From: Candidatus Marinacidobacterales bacterium
GTDB lineage: Bacteria > Acidobacteriota > Vicinamibacteria > Marinacidobacterales > SMYC01
DNA: 64,000 bases
Assembly (NCBI GenBank): GCA_965237955.1
Contig: OZ250169.1
Coordinates: 1,088,001 to 1,152,000 of the forward strand
Reading direction: 5' to 3'
Below, piece after piece: positions 57,380 through 57,560 of the stretch. Made by a program: the position numbers and the translations under genes. The stretch's first letter is position 1, and the number at the start of each line of letters is the position of its first letter. The notes beneath the pieces were generated by a model that searched no databases, was not told where the DNA came from, and worked only from the letters and a program-made list of their open reading frames with translations.

Positions 57380-57560
57380 GGGTGCTTCCGCCATCAAGTG
57401 ATGGGATGGACTCCTCCGCTGACATAGACGGCATCGATGTGCCAAAGTCAGTCGAAAGAACGCATCGAAAAAGGAGGAGTCCGAATGAAAGATACGATGA
57501 TCGCTGTGGGTCTTGCAAAGAACGTCTTCGAGATTGCCATCTCGCGCGAAGCGGGGAAGG
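57380..57560 (+). mobile_element. IS1-like half-TIR joined to an IS1111 left end and first ~25 codons
   Basis: [61 protein letters not shown]. Confidence 0.85.

What the first reader, a model, noticed from the sequence alone, without database searches (positions are those of the whole stretch)
57380..57560. Second independent IS1111 insertion at the same nucleotide of the same TIR
Seen: GGGTGCTTCCGCCATCAAG-TG is followed directly by the IS1111 left end, the same register as 47434. The host TIR variant differs (CCGCCATC vs TCACAATC), so the two events are separate. Empty TIRs at 971, 6225, 31258, 45469 and 48525 each mismatch the TAGCAACACT guide. Inference: occupancy may track guide complementarity.
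Basis: partly seen in the sequence, partly recalled or inferred. Interest (0 to 1): 0.7.

Follow-up and report, generated by a model that had tools for sequence, protein, structure and literature searches.

The report
RNA-guided element fills every matching end
A jumping gene of a known, likely RNA-guided kind sits at one exact base in the end of another jumping gene, and in this genome every end that fully matches its predicted guide is filled while ends with a single mismatch are empty.

Summary
Confirmed, with a correction: 57401-57560 is a 160-bp left-end stub of an IS1111-group element, joined at TCAAG|TG in the terminal repeat of an IS1-like element, as at 47434. It is a separate event, chiefly because it belongs to another lineage (9 differences from the active copy, 1 from copies in relatives). 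Its right flank is lost, so it cannot itself test the guide idea.

Genome-wide the idea holds. All 25 left junctions of this guide type use the same base. Ends matching TCAAG-TG-TTGCTA are filled in 17 of 17 cases, mismatched ends in 0 of 164, single mismatches in 0 of 15. Both guide segments covary with targets in distant homologues, and a 93%-identical sibling with another guide sits at its own matching site.

Limits: a match is needed but not sufficient. A relative has 80 empty perfect sites beside 33 filled ones, and the stub's lineage often lands on mismatched sites (1 of 10 perfect).

This is a new member of a known kind (IS4321-like end targeting). The scan noted the element before in another genome.

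The parts
57381..57400 (+). Outer 20 bp of the IS1-like host terminal repeat, ending in the left target half TCAAG and the dinucleotide TG; host interior lost
57401..57560 (+). IS1111 left-end stub of the ATGGGA lineage: subterminal repeat TGGACTCCTC at 57407-57416, transposase start ATG at 57485; truncated after 160 nt and joined to single-copy DNA
46011..47433 (-). Intact 1423-bp IS1111 copy of the ATGGAA lineage (47434 is its first base if one G of the TG is counted as IS); subterminal repeats at 47427-47418 and 46024-46015
46321..47352 (-). 343-aa DEDD transposase; D9, E52, D89, D92 and the SG motif at S257 read from its motifs
   Evidence: PF01548 and PF02371; NF033542 308.9 bits against cut-off 140
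46203..46212 (-). Predicted top-strand target guide TAGCAACACT, complement of A-G-TG-TTGCTA (target -2 to +6)
   Evidence: sequence; covariation in 14 homologues
46179..46186 (-). Predicted bottom-strand target guide TCAAAG-TG, matching TCAAG-TG with one extra A (bulge inferred)
   Evidence: sequence; covariation in 15 homologues
46104..46156 (-). Predicted donor-binding segments: TTCCATCAT at 46156-46148 (complement of A-TG-ATGGAA) and AGATACG at 46110-46104 (right end AGATA)
   Evidence: sequence; role inferred
45673..46010 (-). Exact 338-bp tandem duplicate of the IS 3' end, including a second guide region
47434..47453 (-). Outer half of the split host right repeat (variant GGTGCTTTCACAA-TCAAG-TG)
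45470..45672 (-). Rest of the 221-bp non-coding miniature host element: TG-TTGCTA at 45672-45665 and its empty left repeat at 45470
5134..6225 (+). Transposase-bearing host copy (355 aa, IS1-like). Its stop codon TAG (6199-6201) is target +4 to +6. Its right repeat is empty and has one mismatch (TCAAA)
971..1000 (+). Empty host right repeat, TCAAA-TA-TTGCTA (2 mismatches)
31258..31290 (+). Empty host repeat of the TTGG type, TTAAG-TG-TTGGTG (3 mismatches to the 13-mer)
48525..48555 (+). Empty host repeat with an extra A and TTGTTA

Best explanation
The stretch at 57401 is the truncated left end of an IS1111-group element that inserted, likely independently of the copy at 47434 and likely steered by an RNA from its 3' non-coding end, into the 13-base site TCAAG-TG-TTGCTA in the right terminal repeat of an IS1-like element. 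Shown: the site, the single base and orientation, all-or-none occupancy in this genome, and guide-target covariation in homologues. Inferred: the RNA reads the top strand from -2 to +6 and the bottom strand from -5 through the TG, and a second loop reads the joined IS ends. The element likely spreads as a circle without restoring the old site, so filled sites stay filled. The target overlaps the host's stop codon, which would explain why right ends and not left ends are hit.
For: 25 of 26 left junctions are at TCAAG|TG in the repeat and 18 of 18 host-type right junctions are TG|TTGCTA. The 26th copy (93% aa identity) has different guides, ATAACAATCG and TTTGCAG, which match its own site CAG-TG...G-ATTGTTAT. 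Occupancy is 17/17 perfect against 0/164 mismatched; with sites defined only by the outer 13 bp it is 16/16 against 0/193. Eight of the 15 single-mismatch empties keep TTGCTA, so end type alone does not explain them. Covariation: top-strand guide 7.9 matches to its own flank against 4.7 to others (n=14); bottom-strand guide, last 3 nt, 2.87 against 0.82 (n=15); 0 of 10,000 permutations reached either. Hosts diverged before insertion: 16 haplotypes among 17, and median identity 83% for hosts against 100% for the IS in 14 miniature hosts. The perfect end is the ordinary intact form in 8 of 60 relatives (4-70 copies each) and absent in G000. G001 has 29 of 30 junction pairs perfect. The guide order matches IS1111 seekRNAs (PMC11187229).
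Against: No RNA, circle junction or activity was observed: there is no joined-end sequence in the assembly and none among the joints listed for 4 runs of contigs. The stub's right flank is lost, as for 8 of 25 filled ends, so those sites are unscored. The 13-mer was first read from filled sites, and full guide cover needs one bulged A. One perfect 13-mer without the outer repeat is empty (3549651). The ATGGGA lineage has only 1 of 10 perfect junction pairs in relatives, including TTGGTA junctions in G020, which still has 18 empty perfect ends. L001 has a mismatched right junction. Homologues are related, so the permutation test overstates. Four filled sites share one flank.
Confidence: 0.88

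Rival explanations
1. One or a few ancient insertions were spread by the host element moving or being duplicated with the IS already inside, so occupancy reflects descent rather than repeated targeting.
For: Four filled sites share the same outer flank, and two of them share a host haplotype. The split end keeps its outer 20 bp.
Against: There are 22 distinct flanks among 25 filled sites and 16 host haplotypes among 17. Hosts are a median 83% alike while the IS is 100% alike. Both miniature and transposase-bearing hosts are hit, and two IS lineages use the same base.
Confidence: 0.04
2. The site is chosen by the transposase protein, or by the host transposase bound at its end, and the guide match is incidental.
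For: All scored insertions in G000 lie in full repeats. The only perfect 13-mer lacking the outer 13 bp is empty, so the outer repeat may help.
Against: Guides covary with different targets across homologues. A 93%-identical sibling with other guides sits at its own matching, non-repeat site. The ATGGGA lineage also uses TCAAG-TG-TTGCT-like sites outside the repeat (L033, L034).
Confidence: 0.05
3. Guide targeting is real, but the sharp split in G000 is a late snapshot: near-matches are usable (as by the ATGGGA lineage) and the empties are simply not hit yet, or such insertions were lost.
For: The ATGGGA lineage has 1 of 10 perfect junction pairs. G002 has no empty perfect site and several off-target copies. 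IS621 shows low but non-zero mismatch tolerance (PMC11208160 passages).
Against: G000 has no perfect repeat left, yet 0 of 15 single-mismatch ends are filled. G001 has 29 of 30 perfect.
Confidence: 0.3

Closest known systems
IS4321/IS5075 (IS1111 family; Partridge and Hall 2003, seen only as a title in reference lists)
   Same: An IS1111-type element with subterminal repeats that targets the terminal inverted repeat of another mobile element.
   Different: The target here is the right end of an IS1-like insertion sequence and its 221-251 bp miniatures, not the Tn21-family repeat. Identity to the IS4321 transposase was not tested.
seekRNA elements ISEc11, ISKpn4, ISPst6, ISPa11, ISPa25 (PMC11187229; parts 1-3 of 9 and passages read)
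   Same: 3' non-coding region, top-strand guide before bottom-strand guide, 7-bp left extension, 330-350 aa DEDD transposase, natural reprogramming between close relatives (ISEc11/ISXne4).
   Different: Different target. The subterminal repeat is 10 bp and the right extension 4-5 bp rather than 3. An earlier scan note names the ISPa25 group as nearest; I did not test that.
IS621 bridge recombinase (PMC11208160, PMC11208158, PMC13626964; passages read)
   Same: Two loops reading target and donor around a 2-nt core; strong preference for perfect target matches.
   Different: IS621 is IS110-group with a left-end RNA and opposite guide order, and it targets REP elements.
ISEc21 (PMC11187229 passages)
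   Same: An RNA-guided element whose target lies inside other insertion sequences.
   Different: IS110-group, and it hits the DDE codons of IS3-family transposases rather than an end.
Tandem expansion of IS110 loci (bioRxiv 10.64898/2026.08.14.744561; abstract, passages and section 8 read)
   Same: Partial tandem duplications whose boundaries keep the left-donor half-site, as in the 338-bp duplicate here.
   Different: Here duplications also end at the left target half, on the host side. I did not see that in the parts read.

Membership tests
IS1111 group (IS110 family) | DEDD (RuvC) plus PF02371 transposase of about 330-350 aa with an SG motif | tested here: met
   343 aa; PF01548, PF02371; NF033542 308.9 bits, cut-off 140; motifs located
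IS1111 group (IS110 family) | Subterminal inverted repeats | tested here: met
   Perfect 10-bp TGGACTCCTC / GAGGAGTCCA; reported range 7-17 bp, usually 11-13
IS1111 group (IS110 family) | Terminal extensions of 7 bp on the left and 3 bp on the right | tested here: inconclusive
   Left GATGGAA is 7 bp; right GATA(T) is 4-5 bp, depending on where the boundary is drawn
IS1111 group (IS110 family) | Long non-coding region downstream of the transposase | tested here: met
   310 bp, 46320-46011
IS1111 group (IS110 family) | Two target matches, top-strand match 5' of bottom-strand match | tested here: met
   46212-46203 precedes 46186-46179 on the coding strand; both covary with flanks in homologues
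IS1111 group (IS110 family) | One specific site, one orientation | tested here: met
   25 of 25 left junctions of this guide type
IS1111 group (IS110 family) | Circular intermediate with a junction promoter | tested here: inconclusive
   No joined ends in the assembly or in the joints listed for 4 contig runs. The predicted junction has TTGACT, 18 bp, TGGAAT (read by eye)
IS1111 group (IS110 family) | Non-coding RNA bound by the transposase and needed for movement | not testable with these tools
   No raw RNA reads were offered; no Rfam match in 45400-47500
IS4321/IS5075 subgroup | Target in the terminal repeat of Tn21-family transposons | tested here: not met
   The target lies at the end of an IS1-like transposase gene. 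It works like them but is not filed with them
IS1 family (host element) | IS1-type DDE transposase with an N-terminal zinc ribbon | tested here: inconclusive
   PF03400 32.7 bits, cut-off 24.1; NF033558 85.1 bits, below cut-off 100; NF050000 below cut-off
IS1 family (host element) | 8-9 bp target duplication (length recalled, from no call) | tested here: not met
   None seen by eye in 9 of 9 complete miniature hosts (flanks); later deletions could have removed them. The host is therefore called IS1-like only

The most novel reading that the evidence does not exclude
An RNA-guided parasite of a transposon has driven its host's normal right end to extinction in this genome. It locks onto a site pinned by the host's stop codon and has filled every perfect end. 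The host family survives only through single-base escape ends. Two sister lineages with the same matched guide bases differ sharply in fidelity, which would place a natural fidelity switch in the donor loop or in a few residues of the recombinase.
Probability: 0.25. Interest if true: 0.68.

Novelty: new member of a known kind. Interest (0 to 1): 0.42.

Why it matters
It is a natural, genome-scale specificity assay for an IS1111 guide: about 190 variant copies of one target, scored filled or empty, with single-base resolution at 6 of 13 positions. It also offers ready-made comparisons for bridge-editing work. A 93%-identical sibling is naturally reprogrammed in the same genome, and two lineages (about 95% aa identical) share the matched guide bases but differ in on-target rate (29 of 30 against 1 of 10). 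Across relatives one can see stages from no invader, through partial filling, to exhaustion. The mechanism and the targeting of transposon ends are already known.

Tried and rejected
My first reading took the bottom-strand guide as TCAAA, with a mismatch at -1. Homologues show that the segment is anchored at its 3' end, so its last G pairs with -1. The TCAAG just upstream of the top-strand guide lies in the predicted outer stem and was dropped as a guide.

The one non-repeat copy looked like an off-target hit; it has its own guides.

Folding the non-coding region alone gave z = -1.74, which is not decisive. Rfam found nothing. No circle junction appeared in 4 runs of contigs, which cannot show absence.

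Escape selection in the host was not established. The -1 variant numbers 5 in G000 against 0-2 in each of 40 relatives, but the window's two TCAAA-type hosts are only 88% alike, so they are not a recent burst. Host decline caused by the IS was not established either. Full-length host genes without stops number 3 in G000 and 0 in G017, against 9 in G018 and 22 in G038, but G026 has only 1 and carries no such IS1111 (listed rows).

No reciprocal 'orphan right half' products of the tandem duplications were evident.

Literature searches for target saturation or an arms race returned nothing relevant. Searches listed no paper on an IS1111 in IS1-like ends; these were read as listings only. Paper supplements were not examined; the target tables of PMC11187229 could hold a named element with this target.

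Full report
Observation. The window is G000:C1:1088001-1152000. At 57380 it reads GGGTGCTTCCGCCATCAAG-TG and then ATGGGATGGACTCCTCC. On the minus strand at 47454 it reads GGGTGCTTTCACAATCAAG-TG-ATGGAATGGACTCCTCC. The register is the same. The five named empty ends each miss the 10-mer AGTGTTGCTA by 1 or 2 bases. The copy at 46011-47433 is a complete 1423-bp element with a 343-aa IS110-family transposase, 10-bp subterminal repeats and a 310-bp 3' non-coding region. The copy at 57401 is only a 160-bp stub, 94% identical, joined to single-copy DNA. Its right end and the host interior are gone.

Is it a separate event? Yes. The stub has 9 differences in 160 nt from the active copy but 1 from copies in L032, L035 and L059. 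It shares the ATGGGA left end and an AGA insertion with them and with a second stub at G000 3660257. It therefore comes from a different IS lineage.

The host. The repeat ends an IS1-like element (355-aa transposase at 5134-6201; PF03400 above its cut-off, NF033558 below) and many 221-251 bp non-coding miniatures. Of 260 genome sites within 3 mismatches of the 17-mer, 141 are within 1; two local shuffles gave 22 sites each and none within 1. The host's stop codon TAG is the complement of target bases +4 to +6. The IS lands 3 to 5 bases past the stop, leaving the gene whole and splitting the right end. Left ends mostly read TTGG and are not hit in G000.

Genome-wide occupancy. G000 has 26 left junctions, 25 of them at TCAAG|TG in the repeat. 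It has 25 right ends: 18 join TG|TTGCTA, 6 join an internal tandem duplicate, and 1 belongs to a variant copy. I rebuilt each target from its two flanks. In the widest set (189 sites, 25 filled, 8 of these unscored because the right flank is lost, the finding's stub among them), perfect TCAAG-TG-TTGCTA ends are filled in 17 of 17 cases. Mismatched ends are filled in 0 of 164 and single mismatches in 0 of 15. With sites defined only by the outer 13 bp, which the guide does not read, the figures are 16 of 16 and 0 of 193 among 216 sites, 7 unscored. After collapsing shared flanks the contrast is 14 of 14 against 0 of 11 (p = 2.2e-7). The single mismatches fall at -1 (5), +6 (4), +4 (3), -4, -2 and the second core base, so 8 of 15 keep TTGCTA and end type alone cannot explain them. 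That one, at 3549651, is a perfect 13-mer without the outer repeat, and it is empty.

Repeated insertion, not inheritance. Filled sites have 22 distinct outer flanks among 25 (one group of four) and 16 host haplotypes among 17. For 14 miniature hosts the median identity is 83% over 150 nt, against 100% over 800 nt of the IS. In one other run a contig joins 45670 to 47434, skipping the IS, which is the empty form of a similar host.

The guides. I scanned 56 loci and parsed 22 distinct guide pairs; 14 had a right flank and 15 a left flank. The 10 nt after GCCG match their own right flank at 7.9 positions against 4.7 for other flanks. The last 3 nt before YGATTGG match their own left flank at 2.87 against 0.82, and the last 5 at 4.13 against 1.69. 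None of 10,000 permutations reached these values. The homologues are related, so the test overstates. In this element the two segments are ATAGCAACAC and GTTCAAAG-TG; together they cover all 13 bases if one A bulges (inferred). The order, top-strand match first, is the IS1111 order reported in PMC11187229. The one copy outside the repeat is 93% identical in protein and carries ATAACAATCG and TTTGCAG, which match its own site. It is a natural reprogramming and an internal control. TTCCATCAT and AGATACG further on match the joined IS ends and are the predicted donor loop.

Relatives set the limits. Record titles call the close relatives Ca. Marinacidobacterales. Intact perfect ends occur in 8 of 60 relatives, 4 to 70 per genome, and in none in G000. 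Per genome, the counts of TTGG-type ends / empty perfect ends / IS left junctions are: G000 63/0/25, G013 45/11/5, G017 18/0/10, G018 48/36/1, G020 95/18/16, G023 180/48/4, G026 84/18/0, G028 51/14/0, G030 9/4/0, G038 215/70/33 (G013, G017, G020, G023 and G038 equal G004, G002, G003, G005 and G001 by coordinates). A match is thus needed but not sufficient: G001 has 80 empty 13-mers beside 33 junctions, with 29 of 30 junction pairs perfect. Against strictness, the ATGGGA lineage, to which the stub belongs, has only 3 of 13 right junctions and 1 of 10 junction pairs perfect in the loci fetched (the 80 best of 81 matches were kept). Most of these come from G002, which has no perfect site left, but G020 has TTGGTA junctions while perfect ends remain. 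The two lineages share the matched guide bases and differ in the donor loop and about 5% of the protein. Whether this is fidelity, age or exhaustion is open.

Mechanism. From the family (established, not shown here): the RNA-bound DEDD recombinase joins the IS ends into a circle and recombines it with the guide-matched site. PMC11187229 and bioRxiv 10.1101/2025.10.25.684509 (passages) report that the empty site is not regenerated. PMC13626964 (passages) reports that excision is much weaker than insertion. Both fit a genome with no empty perfect end. I saw no circle junction and no RNA.

Side product. Tandem duplications end exactly at AGATA| (11 distinct acceptor sites in G000 and relatives) or at TCAAG| on the host side (5 distinct), and every acceptor begins with xG. 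The donor-side kind is described in bioRxiv 10.64898/2026.08.14.744561 (section 8).

Comparison and verdict. The element meets the testable IS1111 criteria. Targeting of another element's end is known from IS4321/IS5075 (title only seen), and targeting inside an IS from ISEc21. Earlier scan notes describe this element and its 3' duplication in other genomes; they are not independent support. Six paper searches (listings only) showed no report of this target or of complete target exhaustion, but most subscription papers and all supplements were unseen. This is a new member of a known kind. Its value is the clean natural specificity table and the paired lineages. Interest 0.42.

Noticed in passing
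window 45673-46010 (-); G000 7864498-7864835, 3027300-3027775, 3051912-3052995; L023, L028-L031: Tandem duplicates of the IS 3' end, all starting at an internal xG site joined to AGATA. The same 338-bp duplicate occurs at two unrelated host sites, so the longer form with two guide regions may move as a unit.
   Followed up: partly
G000 2861941-2862360 (-), 2974160, 3011946, 7874111, 7862976: Host-side tandem duplications (48, 61, 62, 16 and 79 bp; an array of 7 extra units at one site) that end exactly at TCAAG| just upstream of an inserted copy: the mirror image of the donor-side duplicates.
   Followed up: partly
G000 5245814-5247236 (-): A 91%-identical sibling IS with different target guides, sitting at its own matching site outside the repeat.
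   Followed up: yes
G000 3087653, 7995414, 7926986: Host right ends lacking 3 nt at the target core (TCAAG-TG-CTA...); one belongs to a full-length host gene. Possible imprecise-excision scars or slippage between the two TG dinucleotides.
   Followed up: no
window 57265-57291 (+); also G000 289233, 3137944, 7884684: Further half repeats cut right after TCAAG-TG and joined to other DNA. The one in the window continues ATCCATCCC, which holds the reverse complement of the stub lineage's GGGATGG; unexplained.
   Followed up: partly
window 22991, 29057, 36369, 57095 and others; G000 479758, 3660857; L065, L066, L068, L071: An IS481/IS3-like element with the end CGTCCTGTGCCAAAACTC (437 copies of the 18-mer) truncates the IS1111 at the same base (nt 305) in several genomes, and its ends often abut the IS1-like repeats: possible further nested targeting.
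   Followed up: no
window 970-1673 and 5523-6226: Two 88%-alike host right ends in inverted orientation bracket 3.8 kb; both carry the CCTCCA-TCAAA variant.
   Followed up: partly
window 57300-57380 (+): The repeat at 57381 abuts a truncated copy of another dispersed repeat (13 other hits), not identified.
   Followed up: no
window 54411-56966 (+): An 851-aa fusion of an N6 methylase (Eco57I-like) and a BsuBI/PstI endonuclease just upstream of the finding.
   Followed up: no
window 59365-63888: S-adenosylmethionine decarboxylase, DUF350 and spermidine-synthase-domain genes lie together beside the IS cluster.
   Followed up: no
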